Below, one piece after another: positions 18,335 through 64,000 of a stretch of 64,000 nucleotides of DNA (within the stretch, counting starts at the first letter, position 1; each line of letters opens with the position of its first letter). The translations under genes and the position numbers were made by a program. Under the pieces are notes generated by a model that was given only the letters and a program-made list of their open reading frames with translations, was not told the origin of the DNA and did not search any database. This DNA is from Candidatus Poribacteria bacterium (lineage in GTDB: Bacteria > Poribacteria > WGA-4E > WGA-3G), in assembly GCA_965205015.1 (NCBI GenBank), contig OZ242029.1, positions 1,248,001 through 1,312,000 of the forward strand, read 5' to 3'.

Positions 18335-18423
18335 TGTGTGATGCGCCTTCCTTATTGGTTATCGGTTGTCAGTTATCAGTATGGGTCGGGAATCGGAGTT
18401 CCCTCCTACAAAGAGGTCGTTAG

Positions 18424-60592: not shown

Positions 60593-63500
60593 CTAAACCT
60601 GTTCAACGCTTAAGGTTGCGGGTTCGCCGTTCAGTTTTTGGGCGAGGGTGAAAGCGTTTTCACCCGGCGTATCTACGACGGCTGTCGTAAGGGTCTCGCG
60701 GAGGATGTAGTCTCGATGTGCCTGAAACGCCTCATCCAGAAGTGGAGACGTATCACTGAGACTGAGTTTAATCCGATCGGAAACGTTAAAATCGGCATTC
60801 TTCCGCATATTCTGGATTTTATTGACGAACTCGCGCGCCAAGCCTTCCAGTGTCAACTCGTGCGTCAATTCCGTTGACAGTGCGACGAATTTCTTCGCGT
60901 CTACTTCTACGAAGAAACCCTCTCGATTCTGGGTCTGCACATCAACTTCAGATGGCTCCAGGGTGTATGCCTCTCCCGAGACCTCAACCTGTAAACTACC
61001 CGTAGCTTCCAATTCCGCCTTCAACGCGACTGCGTCTGCGGAGGCGAATGCTTTGGCGATGGCTTGCACGCCCTTGCCGTATTTGGGTCCCAATACCCTG
61101 AAGTTGGGTTTGAGTGTCACCTGTGCGAAAGCCTCCAAGCTCTCTGTGAAGCCGATCGCTTTGACATTGAGTTCATCGTGGATGAGGTCTGCCAAACGAT
61201 TCACAGCCGCTTTCTCAGTGTCGGAGAGTCCACCGAGGGTGATTTCTCCCAAGGGTTGGCGTGTTTTAATGCCGGAACGGTTGCGAGCGGCATGCCCCAT
61301 GCGAATCACTTCGCGTGTGAAATCCATATCTGCTTCTAACTGAGTGTCTTTGAAGGCGGCATCCGCAATCGGATATTTCGCAAGATGAACACTCAGAGGT
61401 GCCTCGTCATCCAATGAACACACCAAATTACGATAGAGTTCATCCGCCCAAAACGGAACGAAGGGGGCAGCGAGTTTCGCAACGCTTACGAGGACCTCAT
61501 AAAGCGTGGCGTAGGCGGCATGCTTGTCAGTTCCGGCTTCCGCGCCCCAGAAGCGGTCGCGGGAGCGGCGGACATACCAGTTGCTGAGGTCGTCCACAAA
61601 CGCCTCAATGGCGCGCGGAGCATTCGTGAGATGATAATTTTCCATCTCGGCGCGCACCTTGTCAATGAGGGTGTGGAGACGCGACAAGATCCACCTGTCT
61701 ATCGTGGCGCGTTCTGAAACAGGTGGCGCGTCTCGCAAGACATCGACCTGCTCAAGGTTGGCATACATGACGAAGAAACTATAGACGTTCTGGAGCGTTC
61801 CCATGAACCTCTTCAAGGCTTCATCAATGCCCTCTATTTTGAAAGCGCGGGGTGTCCAGGGTGTGGTTGCGGTGAACATATACCAGCGCATCGCGTCTGC
61901 GCCTTGTTCGTTCAGAATTGTCCACGGATCGATGGTGTTGCCTCGGCTCTTACTCATCTTCTGGCCGTCGGGTCCCATAATCAGTTCAAGACAGAGACAG
62001 TTTTTGTAAGCGGGCTTGTCATAGAGGAGTGTGCCAGTCGCTAAGAGACTATAGAACCACCCACGGGTCTGATCGATGGCTTCGGAGATGAAATCGGCGG
62101 GGTAGGCTTGCTCCAGCATTTCCTGATTCTCAAAGGGATAGTGCCACTGCGCCGTGTGCGCACAACCGGAGTCAAACCAGCAATCAATGACATCTTGCAC
62201 GCGATGCATCGTGCCACTGCATTTCTCACACGCAAGAACAACATCGTCTACATAAGGACGGTGGAGTTCAATATTATCCGGCACATCCGTCCCGAGTTCA
62301 TGCAATTCGGCGATACTGCCGACACAGTGTTGATGTCCGCAGTCGTCACACACCCAAACCGGCAAGGGGGTGCCCCAATAGCGTTCACGACTCAATCCCC
62401 AGTCGATATTGTTTTCCAACCAATTGCCGAAGCGTCCGTCTTTGATATGCTCGGGATACCAGTTGATCTGCTGGTTGTGCTGATGCATCTGATCTCGGAT
62501 AGCGGTCGTCTGGATAAACCACGATTCACGGGCATAGTAGAGCAAGGGGGTATCACACCGCCAACAGAACGGATATTGGTGGGTATACTCGGCAGCCTTG
62601 AATAACAGTCCACGCCCATCCAAGTTTTCGATGATCTTTGGATCGGCGTCTTTGACGTATTCACCCGCCCAGGTGTCTTTAACTTCTGGGACAAATCTAC
62701 CGTCGGGACCGACCAATTGTACGAGGGGCAAACCGTGTTTCTGTCCGATCTCGTAGTCGTCCTGTCCGAAAGCCGGAGCGATGTGAACCAAGCCACTCCC
62801 CTCCGTTGTCGTCACGAAATCGCCGGTGACGATGTAGTGTGATTTTTCCGGATGCTGTCCACCATCGAACAACGGTTCGTATTCCCAGTCTTGGAGGTCA
62901 CTGCCTTTATAGTTTTCGACGATTTGTGGGGGTTCATCTCCGAATAAACTGGGTATACATTCTTTTGCGAGAATGAGGTGCTTCCCATCGCTTTCTTCAA
63001 CGGAAACGTAATCGTAATCCTCACCGACAGCGACAGCGACGTTAGAGGGTAATGTCCACGGGGTCGTCGTCCAGACGAGGAGGTAGGTATTCTCTCTGTT
63101 TTTCAGCGGGAAGCGAACGAAGATAGATGGATCGGAGACTTCTTGGTAACCCTGCGCGACTTCGTGGCTCGCTAAGGTTGTGCCGCACCGATAGCAATAG
63201 GGTTGGACCTTATGCCCTTGATAGAGGAGTTCCTTGTCCCACGCTTGCCGGAGGACCCACCAAACGCTTTCAATGTAATCGTTCGACAAGGTGATATAAG
63301 CATCATCGAGATCAACCCAATATCCGATGCGTTCCGTCATCCGCCGCCACTCCTGCTCGTATTGGAAGACGTTCTCCTTACATTTTTCGATAAAGTTTTG
63401 AACGCCGTAAGCCTCGAGTTCGGCTTTGTTTTTAATATCGAGTTGCTTTTCGACCTGATATTCAACGGGCAGTCCGTGTGTGTCCCAACCTGCCTTACGA

Positions 63501-63739
63501 TGGACGTAATGTCCCGTCATCGTTTTGTAACGACAGACGGCATCTTTCATGATACGCGCGAGGACGTGATGCACACCCGGCGGGGCATTCGCAAACGGAG
63601 GTCCTTCGAGAAAAACAAAGGGCGGATCGCCTTTGTGGACATCCATACTCTTCTGAAAGATGTCGTTTTCACGCCAGAATTCTAAGATCTGTTTTTCCCT
63701 CTCAGCAAATGTGAATTGGGATGATACCTCTTCAAACAT
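60593..63739 (-). CDS. ileS: Isoleucine--tRNA ligase, type 2 (eukaryote/archaea-like), GVHH motif
   Basis: GPPFAN..GVHH, GWDTHGLPVE, WTTTPWTLPSN, SRERYWGTP, DQTRGWFY, KMSKS; long type-2 C-terminus (EGLAREFVNKIQNMRK) without a C-terminal Zn finger. Confidence 0.96.
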   Translation of the reverse strand: MFEEVSSQFTFAEREKQILEFWRENDIFQKSMDVHKGDPPFVFLEGPPFANAPPGVHHVLARIMKDAVCRYKTMTGHYVHRKAGWDTHGLPVEYQVEKQLDIKNKAELEAYGVQNFIEKCKENVFQYEQEWRRMTERIGYWVDLDDAYITLSNDYIESVWWVLRQAWDKELLYQGHKVQPYCYRCGTTLASHEVAQGYQEVSDPSIFVRFPLKNRENTYLLVWTTTPWTLPSNVAVAVGEDYDYVSVEESDGKHLILAKECIPSLFGDEPPQIVENYKGSDLQDWEYEPLFDGGQHPEKSHYIVTGDFVTTTEGSGLVHIAPAFGQDDYEIGQKHGLPLVQLVGPDGRFVPEVKDTWAGEYVKDADPKIIENLDGRGLLFKAAEYTHQYPFCWRCDTPLLYYARESWFIQTTAIRDQMHQHNQQINWYPEHIKDGRFGNWLENNIDWGLSRERYWGTPLPVWVCDDCGHQHCVGSIAELHELGTDVPDNIELHRPYVDDVVLACEKCSGTMHRVQDVIDCWFDSGCAHTAQWHYPFENQEMLEQAYPADFISEAIDQTRGWFYSLLATGTLLYDKPAYKNCLCLELIMGPDGQKMSKSRGNTIDPWTILNEQGADAMRWYMFTATTPWTPRAFKIEGIDEALKRFMGTLQNVYSFFVMYANLEQVDVLRDAPPVSERATIDRWILSRLHTLIDKVRAEMENYHLTNAPRAIEAFVDDLSNWYVRRSRDRFWGAEAGTDKHAAYATLYEVLVSVAKLAAPFVPFWADELYRNLVCSLDDEAPLSVHLAKYPIADAAFKDTQLEADMDFTREVIRMGHAARNRSGIKTRQPLGEITLGGLSDTEKAAVNRLADLIHDELNVKAIGFTESLEAFAQVTLKPNFRVLGPKYGKGVQAIAKAFASADAVALKAELEATGSLQVEVSGEAYTLEPSEVDVQTQNREGFFVEVDAKKFVALSTELTHELTLEGLAREFVNKIQNMRKNADFNVSDRIKLSLSDTSPLLDEAFQAHRDYILRETLTTAVVDTPGENAFTLAQKLNGEPATLSVEQV

Positions 63740-63788
63740 TTTTTTAACTATTCGCCTCCTGGACCTGTTTCGTTAGAATGATTTAGAA

Positions 63789-63814
63789 GTCGGGAATCGG
63801 AGTTCCCTCCTACA
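63789..63814. repeat. GTAG-family REP-like element, identical to the copy at 18385-18410
   Basis: GTCGGGAATCGGAGTTCCCTCCTACA, 26/26 identical in both places. Confidence 0.85.
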
Positions 63815-63849
63815 GAAAAGCTAAAGGTTCTGAATCTGCTACCTACGTT

Positions 63850-63896
63850 AAAAAAAAACACCCTCACTGAAATCGTCTGCTTCAGTGATGGGCGTT
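63850..63896 (-). terminator. Intrinsic terminator (attenuator) in the ileS leader
   Basis: Minus strand AACGCCCATCACTGAA-GCAGACGAT-TTCAGTGAGGGTG followed by 9 T. Confidence 0.85.
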
Positions 63897-63925
63897 GTTA
63901 TGGAGACTTTTTTCTCTGCTCGTGA

Positions 63926-64000
63926 TTAGCCCACCACAGCACGACGAATAGCAATAATAATAATAATGGATATGGCGCGCGAAGCCGAGACAGCCCGAAG
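63926..64000 (-). CDS. Ile-rich leader peptide of ileS (start lies beyond the window edge)
   Basis: Minus frame reads ...LRAVSASRAISIIIIIAIRRAVVG* with five consecutive ATT codons (63967-63953); stop TAA at 63928-63926. Confidence 0.75.
   Translation of the reverse strand, partial: LRAVSASRAISIIIIIAIRRAVVG

What the first reader, a model, noticed from the sequence alone, without database searches (positions are those of the whole stretch)
63740..64000. Leader-peptide transcription attenuator controlling isoleucyl-tRNA synthetase
Seen: directly upstream of ileS on the minus strand is a short ORF ...RAISIIIIIAIRRAVVG* with 7 Ile codons in 9 positions (1 ATA, 5 consecutive ATT, then 1 ATT). 30 nt after its stop is a strong hairpin with a U9 tail (63896-63850). 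The last leader codons GUGGUGGGC (63937-63929) can pair with GCCCAUCAC (63893-63885) in the terminator's 5' arm (8 Watson-Crick pairs + 1 GU), giving a mutually exclusive antiterminator. Known: this is the geometry of trp/his/ilv/pheST-type ribosome-mediated attenuation, whereas ileS regulation is classically by T-box riboswitches (Firmicutes, Actinobacteria). Inference: a ribosome stalled on the Ile run leaves GUGGUGGGC free and ileS is read through; a ribosome reaching the stop masks it and transcription terminates. The ATT+ATA mix could sense both tRNA-Ile isoacceptors. I do not know of this being described for Poribacteria ileS.
Basis: partly seen in the sequence, partly recalled or inferred. 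Interest (0 to 1): 0.85.

Follow-up and report, generated by a model that had tools for sequence, protein, structure and literature searches.

The report
Isoleucine leader-peptide attenuator before ileS
Just upstream of the isoleucyl-tRNA synthetase gene of this sponge-associated bacterium lies a short isoleucine-rich reading frame followed by a transcription stop signal, an arrangement kept throughout its phylum that most likely switches the gene on when charged isoleucine tRNA runs low.

Summary
On the minus strand the window holds ...RAISIIIIIAIRRAVVG* (7 Ile in 9 codons), a -21.4 kcal/mol hairpin with a U9 tail, and a 9-bp antiterminator pairing at the stated coordinates. A covariance model built from relatives finds the element once upstream of ileS in the window and in 75 of 80 related loci. 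Three of the five misses are contig breaks; two are Anaerolineae. An exact-pattern scan of 185,579 species genomes gave 67 stretches, 66 titled Poribacteria. Relatives supply what the window lacks: a conserved TTGACA/TATCAT promoter and an in-frame ATG giving 28-50 aa leaders. The functional blocks are as conserved as ileS codon positions 1-2, while the spacer and loop drift like third positions. In 19 of 76 cases ileS starts within 30 nt of the element. Rfam finds no T-box here, but the same genomes have T-boxes on pheS and an acetolactate synthase gene. Best reading: pheST-type ribosome-mediated attenuation. It is a new member of a known kind, supported only in silico. Weak points are a poor Shine-Dalgarno at the conserved ATG, almost no covariation, and no RNA 3'-end data.

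The parts
63926..64000 (-). 3' part of the leader ORF (5' end lies beyond the window): ...LRAVSASRAISIIIIIAIRRAVVG*, stop TAA at 63928-63926
   Evidence: Full-length homologues of 28-50 aa with an in-frame ATG occur in relatives.
63971..63980 (-). Region 1 (GCGCGCCAUA), candidate anti-antiterminator strand that pairs with region 2. A ribosome stalled on the Ile codons would cover it.
   Evidence: Coordinates. The pairing is kept in 93.0% of cells, against 28-58% when slid. The duplex median is -13.5 kcal/mol.
63947..63973 (-). Regulatory Ile codons: ATA, (TCC), ATT x5, (GCT), ATT
   Evidence: The pattern I-x-I-I-I-A-I is conserved. Leader Ile codons are ATT 284, ATA 69 and ATC 11, whereas ileS itself uses ATC 29, ATT 14 and ATA 3.
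63929..63942 (-). Region 2 (GUGCUGUGGUGGGC; core GUGGUGGGC at 63937-63929), the last leader codons and the 5' strand of the antiterminator
   Evidence: The mean major-base frequency is 0.949.
63916..63926 (-). Segment 2' (AUCACGAGCAG), which can form a local hairpin with region 2 with the stop codon in the loop
   Evidence: The pairing is kept in 92.0% of cells, against 28-60% when slid.
63873..63894 (-). Region 3 (CGCCCAUCAC, 63894-63885) plus the terminator's upper 5' arm and loop. This is the 3' strand of the antiterminator, extended to 63873 in this window.
   Evidence: The mean major-base frequency is 0.973.
63857..63896 (-). Rho-independent terminator hairpin (3:4)
   Evidence: -21.4 kcal/mol, z -5.47. 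The pattern scan also found it. It is present in all 75 full relatives at -14.0 to -25.3 kcal/mol.
63850..63858 (-). U9 tract of the terminator
   Evidence: At least 6 U in 9 nt occur after the hairpin in 75 of 75 elements.
63786..63814 (-). Dispersed repeat copy inserted in the spacer between terminator and ileS. It is not part of the switch.
   Evidence: A second copy lies at 18382-18410. The same sequence occurs in the spacers of 4 relatives. Metatranscriptome contigs show a depth spike at 63775-63825.
63755..63760 (-). AGGAGG Shine-Dalgarno-like motif upstream of ileS
   Evidence: ileS starts have strong SD complementarity in 94% of 64 loci.
60593..63739 (-). ileS, isoleucine--tRNA ligase (1048 aa), the regulated gene
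   Evidence: TIGR00392 at 960.9 bits. PF00133, PF08264 and PF19302.

Best explanation
This is a classical ribosome-mediated (leader-peptide) transcription attenuator controlling ileS, with the same logic as the E. coli pheST attenuator.

Proposed sequence of events:
- A sigma-70-type promoter, seen in relatives, starts a leader transcript that encodes a 28-50 codon peptide. Its C-terminal part carries I-x-I-I-I-A-I; in this window it is I-S-I-I-I-I-I-A-I.
- The last codons (GUGGUGGGC, region 2) can pair with region 1, just 5' of the Ile codons, or with region 3, the 5' arm of a strong terminator 30 nt past the stop codon.
- When charged tRNA-Ile is plentiful, the ribosome runs to the stop codon and covers region 2. 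If the leader is not translated, region 2 is held by region 1. In both cases the 3:4 terminator forms and transcription ends at the U tract before ileS.
- When charged tRNA-Ile is scarce (little isoleucine or too little IleRS activity), the ribosome stalls on the Ile codons. It covers region 1 and leaves region 2 free. Region 2 pairs with region 3 as it emerges, the terminator cannot form, and RNA polymerase reads into ileS.

Shown: the sequence elements, their complementarity, their geometry, their phylum-wide conservation and their exclusive linkage to ileS.

Inferred: translation of the leader, stalling, and the effect on termination.
For: - Anatomy in the window.
- Linkage to ileS: model R1 matches once per locus, always upstream of ileS and in the same orientation, in the window and 75 of 80 loci.
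  - Of the 5 misses, 2 are Anaerolineae and 3 have 0, 151 or 501 nt of upstream DNA.
  - For two of those isolates the element lies at the end of another contig.
- Copy number: five whole genomes have one strong copy each, at ileS.
- Coding signal: the promoter regex hits 65 of 67 loci. An in-frame ATG gives leaders of nine different lengths, 28-50 aa, in 64 of 67, so indels keep the frame.
- Ile run: at least 4 Ile in 7 codons in 71 of 75 elements. Codon choice is ATT/ATA, opposite to the ATC preference of ileS itself.
- Terminator: present in 75 of 75, with a median of -19.1 kcal/mol and at least 6 U in 9 nt.
- Antiterminator: the complementarity is kept in 99.7% of 603 cells, against 33-70% when slid. 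For 1:2 the figure is 93.0% against 28-58%.
- Co-transcriptional fold: on transcripts that end before the terminator's 3' arm, the minimum-energy fold is the antiterminator.
- Selection: major-base frequency is 0.968 for the Ile run, 0.949 for region 2 and 0.973 for region 3. The spacer is 0.735, the loop 0.750 and ileS third codon positions 0.729.
- No separate promoter possible: in 19 of 76 cases ileS starts within 30 nt of the element's end. In those genomes ileS can only be transcribed through this terminator.
- No T-box.
Against: - There is no experimental or RNA 3'-end evidence. The RNA runs on offer are assembled contigs only.
- The conserved upstream ATG has no better Shine-Dalgarno complementarity than random sites (median -3.0 against -2.8 kcal/mol). 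Only the internal NTG in 43 of 67 loci has one (median -5.1).
- The helices rest on conserved complementarity, not on compensatory change. Only 3 cells show a double change in the antiterminator, and the shuffles are not clearly exceeded.
- At equilibrium the terminator fold wins even when region 2 is free (-33.7 against -21.5 kcal/mol forced). The switch therefore has to be kinetic.
- Region 2 has four conserved candidate partners. The local 2:2' hairpin could trap it in the stalled state.
- Four lineages keep the terminator but have only 2-3 Ile codons (L028, L047, L029, L053).
- The leader is long (42-50 codons) compared with classical leaders (my recollection of those lengths).
- The window's own start codon is not visible.
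Confidence: 0.8

Rival explanations
1. The terminator is conditional but is controlled by something other than a translating ribosome: an RNA-binding protein (for example IleRS itself, as ThrRS does on thrS), a small molecule or an sRNA. On this view the open frame and its Ile codons are by-products of conserved RNA sequence.
For: - The conserved ATG lacks a Shine-Dalgarno motif.
- Much of the 'peptide' conservation is explained at the RNA level. The LTT codons form a block complementary to region 2, and the AIRRAVVG codons are the antiterminator strand.
- Four lineages have few Ile codons.
Against: - The frame stays open across nine leader lengths with an in-frame ATG in 64 of 67 loci.
- ATTATTATT is invariant or nearly so, yet no helix tested here includes it.
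- The Ile codons sit exactly where a stalled ribosome would cover region 1 and free region 2.
- No Rfam family matches.
Confidence: 0.08
2. The small ORF is an independent gene for a small hydrophobic protein with its own terminator. Its position next to ileS has no regulatory meaning.
For: - The ORF is conserved, and a promoter and terminator flank it.
- The peptide has a hydrophobic Ile-rich C-terminal half.
Against: - In 19 of 76 cases ileS begins within 30 nt of the element, so there is no room for a separate ileS promoter.
- The linkage to ileS is universal.
- The N-terminal residues vary freely apart from blocks explained by RNA pairing.
- The last codons are complementary to the terminator arm in 99.7% of cells.
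Confidence: 0.05
3. A T-box riboswitch, or another tRNA-binding leader, controls ileS as in Firmicutes, Actinobacteria and Chloroflexi.
For: - ileS is a classical T-box target (PMC1262725, passages read).
- The nearest non-poribacterial ileS locus, L077 from Anaerolineaceae, has one at 94.4 bits.
- Poribacteria do possess T-boxes.
Against: - RF00230 gives no match even at E up to 10 in the window's last 1 kb.
- It gives none in the full 900-nt upstream region of L004.
- It gives none at gathering score in five further poribacterial ileS loci.
- The two T-boxes per genome in 5 genomes lie elsewhere. The 8 of 10 matches whose downstream gene I read are upstream of pheS and an acetolactate synthase gene.
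Confidence: 0.01

Closest known systems
E. coli pheST attenuator (pheM leader peptide; Rfam Phe_leader)
   Same: A leader-peptide transcription attenuator in front of an aminoacyl-tRNA synthetase gene. A run of codons for the cognate amino acid is followed by alternative antiterminator and terminator hairpins, so the enzyme's own product (charged tRNA) feeds back on its synthesis. pheST is named as the precedent in PMC1262725 (passages read); the details are my recollection.
   Different: The amino acid and gene differ (Ile/ileS, not Phe/pheST), as does the phylum. There is no sequence similarity. The leader is much longer (28-50 codons). In Poribacteria pheS itself carries a T-box instead.
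E. coli thr, ilvGMEDA and ilvBN leaders (Ile-containing leader peptides; Rfam RF00506 Thr_leader)
   Same: Ile codons act as regulatory codons in a ribosome-stalling attenuator with a four-region RNA. The only Rfam hit in the window is a sub-threshold Thr_leader match over the whole element (18.3 bits, E 1.2).
   Different: Those leaders control biosynthetic operons and mix Thr/Ile or Ile/Val/Leu codons (recalled). Here only Ile is enriched and the target is the synthetase. The score is far below the gathering score of 55, so this is not a member of the family.
Caulobacter crescentus 'ileS leader CDS' (CCNA_03934)
   Same: A small translated ORF upstream of ileS, named as an ileS leader in a ribosome-profiling study (PMC4117421; I read only the passages holding the terms).
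   Different: That paper uses it only as a control construct. The passages I saw describe no Ile run, terminator or mechanism. I could not compare sequences. The poribacterial pattern occurs in no genome outside the poribacterial set.
ileS T-box leaders (Firmicutes, Actinobacteria, Chloroflexi; RF00230)
   Same: The same regulated gene, the same physiological signal (uncharged tRNA-Ile), and in many cases the same output of terminator against antiterminator.
   Different: The sensor is direct tRNA binding by a structured RNA, not a translating ribosome. The covariance model does not match here.
Leader peptides upstream of trpS and leuS in Streptomyces, and the His leader upstream of hisS paralogues in bacilli
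   Same: These are predicted leader-peptide attenuators of synthetase genes outside Proteobacteria (PMC1262725 and PMC2965389, passages read).
   Different: They involve other amino acids, genes and phyla, and are not homologous in sequence.

Membership tests
Ribosome-mediated (leader-peptide) transcription attenuator, trp/his/pheST class | Short ORF with a start codon upstream of, and co-oriented with, the regulated gene | tested here: met
   The window shows only the 3' 24 codons. In relatives an in-frame ATG gives 28-50 aa leaders in 64 of 67 loci. The frame is kept across nine length classes.
Ribosome-mediated (leader-peptide) transcription attenuator, trp/his/pheST class | Ribosome-binding site for the leader ORF | tested here: inconclusive
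   The conserved ATG has a median anti-SD duplex of -3.0 kcal/mol, against -2.8 for random sites and -6.2 for ileS starts. An internal in-frame NTG with an SD-like motif (median -5.1) occurs in 43 of 67 loci, including the window's closest relatives.
Ribosome-mediated (leader-peptide) transcription attenuator, trp/his/pheST class | Cluster of codons for the amino acid that matches the regulated gene | tested here: met
   7 Ile in 9 codons in the window. At least 4 Ile in 7 codons in 71 of 75 elements. It is the only such cluster in the 64-kb window.
Ribosome-mediated (leader-peptide) transcription attenuator, trp/his/pheST class | Intrinsic terminator between the leader ORF and the structural gene | tested here: met
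   -21.4 kcal/mol, z -5.47, with a U9 tail. Present in 75 of 75 relatives.
Ribosome-mediated (leader-peptide) transcription attenuator, trp/his/pheST class | Antiterminator that excludes the terminator, with its 5' strand placed so that a ribosome at the stop codon masks it and a ribosome on the regulatory codons does not | tested here: met
   The 9-bp core pairing shares 63893-63885 with the terminator and is kept in 99.7% of cells. Region 2 is the last three codons before the stop and begins 10 nt 3' of the last Ile codon. The ribosome footprint sizes are taken from general knowledge.
Ribosome-mediated (leader-peptide) transcription attenuator, trp/his/pheST class | Anti-antiterminator (1:2) that a stalled ribosome disrupts | tested here: inconclusive
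   Region 1:2 complementarity is kept in 93.0% of cells. There are also two further candidate partners. No covariation shows which one is used.
Ribosome-mediated (leader-peptide) transcription attenuator, trp/his/pheST class | Read-through rises when the cognate charged tRNA is limiting | not testable with these tools
   Only assembled contigs of RNA libraries were on offer, and there is no cultured host.
T-box leader (Rfam RF00230) | Match to the T-box covariance model (Stem I with specifier loop, T-box sequence, antiterminator bulge) | tested here: not met
   No hit at E up to 10 in window 63000-64000 or L004 2200-3100. None at gathering score in L027, L028, L029, L047 or L053. Controls: L077 at 94.4 bits and 10 T-box matches in 5 poribacterial genomes at other loci.
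Thr operon leader (Rfam RF00506) | Score at or above the gathering score of 55 bits | tested here: not met
   18.3 bits, E 1.2.

The most novel reading that the evidence does not exclude
Poribacteria independently invented a phylum-specific leader-peptide attenuator for ileS while keeping T-boxes for pheS and an acetolactate synthase gene. That is the reverse of the textbook assignment (E. coli: leader peptides on pheST and ilv; Gram-positives: T-box on ileS).

The design is also unusual. One G-rich strand has four conserved competing partners, one of them encoded 35-40 codons upstream in the leader's own LTT codons. This could make termination the default when the leader is untranslated.

The abundant terminated leader RNA might in addition act in trans, as rnTrpL does in Sinorhizobium.
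Probability: 0.4. Interest if true: 0.6.

Novelty: new member of a known kind. Interest (0 to 1): 0.5.

Why it matters
- It adds a well-defined cis-regulatory RNA, absent from Rfam, to an uncultured sponge-symbiont phylum for which I found no paper that pairs Poribacteria with attenuation, leader peptides, riboswitches or T-boxes among the 15 listed of 2,906 hits.
- It shows that leader-peptide attenuation of a synthetase gene is not confined to Proteobacteria, Actinobacteria and Firmicutes.
- It gives a clean natural example of one organism using both a T-box and a ribosome-based sensor for different aminoacyl-tRNA pools.
- In practice, the 28-50 codon ORF should be annotated as a leader rather than a hypothetical protein, and the element can serve as a marker of poribacterial ileS loci.
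- It does not open a new mechanism.

Tried and rejected
- **Whole genome of the window:** none is held, so the window's own leader start could not be read.
- **Rfam:** only a sub-threshold Thr_leader hit and three chance hits in the window. L004 gave only chance hits.
- **Covariation:** counts on five candidate helices showed kept complementarity but almost no compensatory change.
  - The model-fitted alignment exceeded the shuffles (7 pairs with double changes against 1.6). That alignment leans towards the structure, and its lower stem is out of register for two sequence variants.
- **Extended antiterminator:** the 9 extra pairs in the window are kept in only 76.8% of cells, so this is a lineage feature rather than a general one.
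- **Equilibrium folding:** it does not by itself give a switch, because the terminator fold wins.
- **RNA evidence:** all 21 RNA runs offered hold small shares and are kept as contigs. I laid four of them.
  - One 4594-nt contig of X1, with 109 differing letters, spans 62502-64000.
  - One X6 contig joins the leader to ileS with a different spacer.
  - Contigs cannot show ends, strand or level, and DNA may be present in such libraries. This neither supports nor opposes attenuation.
- **Second copies:** one weak paralogue in G002 (L086, 43.4 bits) has no Ile run and precedes an unrelated secreted-protein ORF. It is not a second member of a regulon.
- **Literature:** searches found no description of an ileS leader-peptide attenuator apart from the name 'ileS leader CDS' in PMC4117421.
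  - Lopatovskaya et al. 2010 (Mol Biol 44:128; cited in PMC4833913) is the survey most likely to bear on prior art. It is not held and I did not see it.
Full report
**What is in the window**

On the minus strand, ileS (63739-60593, 1048 aa) is an isoleucine--tRNA ligase. It matches TIGR00392 at 960.9 bits (cut-off 621.4) and has Pfam tRNA-synt_1, Anticodon_1 and DUF5915.

Upstream, a frame that runs off the window's end reads ...LRAVSASRAISIIIIIAIRRAVVG* with the stop at 63928-63926. Its Ile codons are ATA, then five ATT, then one more ATT, at 63973-63947.

Twenty-nine bases after the stop, a hairpin at 63896-63857 folds at -21.4 kcal/mol. Its z-score is -5.47 and none of 200 shuffles fold as well. 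A U9 run follows at 63858-63850.

GUGGUGGGC (63937-63929) is complementary to GCCCAUCAC (63893-63885) by 8 Watson-Crick pairs and one G-U, and that target is part of the terminator's 5' arm.

In all six frames of the 64-kb window, this is the only place with at least 5 Ile codons in 7 (127,956 windows examined).

**Relatives**

No genome is held for the window, so I fetched ileS loci from one genome per species.
- 125 stretches matched and 113 were confirmed; the best 80 were kept.
- 78 of the 80 have IleS 76-95% identical. Of these, 76 are titled Poribacteria and 2 'uncultured bacterium'.
- The other 2 are Anaerolineae at 47-51% identity.

A peptide regular expression found the leader in 67 of the 78 loci. 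A covariance model (R1) was built from the window plus those 67.
- It matched exactly once in the window and in 75 of the 80 loci, always upstream of ileS on the same strand.
- The five loci without a match are the two Anaerolineae and three loci with only 0, 151 or 501 nt of upstream DNA.
- For the isolates of two of those three, the element lies at the end of another contig (L124 and L156).

In five whole genomes, R1 finds one strong copy each, at ileS. There is also one weak paralogue with no Ile run in front of an unrelated ORF.

An exact pattern joining region 2, the stop and region 3 was scanned over the collection of 185,579 species genomes. It gave 67 stretches: 66 titled Poribacteria and one 'uncultured bacterium' contig that also carries a poribacterial-type ileS. 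By sequence, the element is specific to this phylum and to ileS.

**What the relatives add**

- **Promoter.** A TTGACA, 17-18 nt spacer, TAT(C/T)AT promoter is found in 65 of 67 loci. In L004 the upstream gene is divergent, so the promoter lies in a divergent intergenic region.
- **Start codon.** An in-frame ATG downstream of the promoter gives leaders of 28, 36, 37, 42, 45, 46, 48, 49 or 50 aa in 64 of 67 loci. The many indels all keep the frame, which argues for translation.
- **Weak point.** This ATG has no better complementarity to a generic anti-Shine-Dalgarno motif than random sites (median -3.0 against -2.8 kcal/mol; ileS starts -6.2).
- **Internal start.** In 43 of 67 loci, including the window's closest relatives, an internal in-frame GTG, ATG, CTG or TTG follows an AAGGAG-like motif (median -5.1). 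It would give a leader of 26-34 aa (32-34 in 39 of the 43 loci) in the same frame.

**The Ile signal**

Among 75 full-length elements, the largest number of Ile codons in any 7-codon stretch is:
- 5 in 57 elements
- 6 in 1 element (the window)
- 4 in 13 elements
- 3 in 2 elements
- 2 in 2 elements

The usual pattern is I-x-I-I-I-A-I-R-R-A-V-V-G-stop.

The leaders use ATT 284 times, ATA 69 times and ATC 11 times. The window's ileS gene uses ATC 29, ATT 14 and ATA 3. The regulatory codons are thus the less-used ones, as in some classical attenuators. An AT-rich, unpaired stretch would have the same effect.

**RNA switch**

All 75 elements have a terminator hairpin (-14.0 to -25.3 kcal/mol, median -19.1) followed by at least 6 U in 9 nt. 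Complementarity of region 2 to its four candidate partners, counted across sequences against partners slid by 1-3 columns:

| Partner of region 2 | Cells paired | Slid control |
|---|---|---|
| Region 3 (core antiterminator) | 99.7% of 603 | 33-70% |
| Region 1 (CGCCAUA, just 5' of and overlapping the first Ile codon) | 93.0% | 28-58% |
| Local 3' segment 2', stop codon in the loop | 92.0% | 28-60% |
| Distal 5' block GCUUACCAC (the conserved 'LTT' codons) | 94.4% | 35-57% |

- Compensatory changes are almost absent because the strands are nearly invariant, so covariation cannot prove any helix.
- Conservation does speak. Major-base frequency is 0.968 for the Ile run, 0.949 for region 2 and 0.973 for region 3. 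That is close to ileS codon positions 1 and 2 (0.963 and 0.986).
- The spacer (0.735) and the terminator loop (0.750) drift like ileS third positions (0.729).

**Energetics**

- With the whole RNA free, the terminator conformation is the minimum, even if region 2 is unmasked (-33.7 kcal/mol, against -21.5 with the antiterminator forced).
- On transcripts that end before the terminator's 3' arm has been made, the minimum is the antiterminator. In the window it extends to 13-18 bp. The extension is kept in only 76.8% of cells elsewhere.
- As in the trp operon, the decision must therefore be kinetic and made while the polymerase is between region 3 and the U tract.

**Geometry**

This uses the usual ribosome footprint of about 12-15 nt on either side of the decoding site, which is general knowledge and was not tested here.
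- A ribosome with any of the Ile codons in its A site covers region 1 (63980-63971) and leaves GUGGUGGGC free, or all but one base of it.
- A ribosome at the stop codon covers region 2 completely.

**Coupling to ileS**

The distance from the end of the element to the ileS ATG is at most 30 nt in 19 of 76 cases, with a minimum of 7 nt. The median is 113 and the maximum 742. Where it is short, only a Shine-Dalgarno motif fits, so ileS must be transcribed through the terminator. Longer spacers hold insertions. In the window this is a dispersed repeat, also present at 18382-18410.

**Exclusion of a T-box**

- RF00230 does not match the window (E up to 10).
- It does not match the complete upstream region of L004.
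- It does not match five other poribacterial ileS loci at gathering score.
- The method works. The Anaerolineaceae ileS locus L077 has a T-box at 94.4 bits.
- Each of five poribacterial genomes has two T-box matches. For the 8 of 10 matches fetched as loci, the downstream ORFs form two look-alike groups.
- One member of each group was scanned. One is an acetolactate synthase large subunit (TIGR00118, 690.6 bits). The other is PheS (PF01409 and PF02912).
- The phylum thus uses T-boxes, but not for ileS.

**Comparison with what is known**

- Leader-peptide attenuation of synthetase genes is established for pheST and predicted for trpS and leuS in Streptomyces (PMC1262725, passages read).
- A His leader precedes hisS paralogues in bacilli (PMC2965389, passages read).
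- A Caulobacter study names an 'ileS leader CDS' without describing it (PMC4117421, passages read).
- ileS T-boxes are described for Actinobacteria (PMC1262725).
- My six library searches found no description of an ileS leader-peptide attenuator with its RNA switch, and none for Poribacteria.
- The 2010 survey by Lopatovskaya and colleagues is not held and may contain predictions for other phyla.

I therefore file this as a new member of a known kind. The mechanism is textbook. The gene, the phylum, the co-existence with T-boxes and the multi-partner design are the new parts.

**Verdict**

- All support is comparative and thermodynamic. Translation of the leader, stalling and regulated termination remain to be shown.
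- Interest is moderate (0.5).

Noticed in passing
window 63786-63814 (-) and 18382-18410 (-); also L004, L005, L012 and L074 at about 2926-2955: A 29-nt dispersed repeat with an internal inverted repeat sits in the spacer between the terminator and ileS. A second copy with 3 mismatches lies elsewhere in the window. Metatranscriptome contigs pile up on 63775-63825 (summed depth above 2000 in two runs) with loose ends on both sides, as expected for a REP- or MITE-like element common in these communities.
   Followed up: partly
L030, L043, L057, L010, L039, L052 and L073: spacer between the terminator and ileS (seen in the alignment): Tandem heptamer repeats of the AGTTATC/AGTTTTC type fill the variable spacer in many relatives. 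This accounts for spacers of up to several hundred bases. Their function is unknown.
   Followed up: no
L087-L094 (genomes G001-G005): Each of five poribacterial genomes has two T-box matches (10 in all). The 8 fetched as loci lie upstream of an acetolactate synthase large-subunit gene and upstream of pheS. The specifier codons were not read.
   Followed up: partly
L086 (G002:C1:1574923-1575080, -): A diverged paralogue of the leader element (43.4 bits) has a similar promoter, a similar peptide start (MFYLSL...) and a similar terminator, but no Ile run. It lies upstream of an ORF for a protein with a signal-peptide-like N-terminus. It may be a duplicated, decayed or re-used attenuator.
   Followed up: partly
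A3 columns 68-76 (for example L010 at about 2665-2673); beyond the window's end: The conserved 'LTT' codons near the leader's 5' end (GCUUACCAC) are complementary to region 2 in 94.4% of cells. In the window's own clade one position is a mismatch (GCUUACGAC). This could be a distal anti-antiterminator.
   Followed up: partly
L028, L029, L047 and L053, leader region: Four lineages keep the terminator and region 2 but have only 2-3 Ile codons. L047 and L053 also have insertions. The sensor may be degenerating or changing there.
   Followed up: no
L077 514-776 (+): The Anaerolineaceae ileS locus, the nearest non-poribacterial relative fetched, carries a T-box at 94.4 bits. The other Anaerolineales locus (L079) has no match at gathering score.
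   Followed up: no
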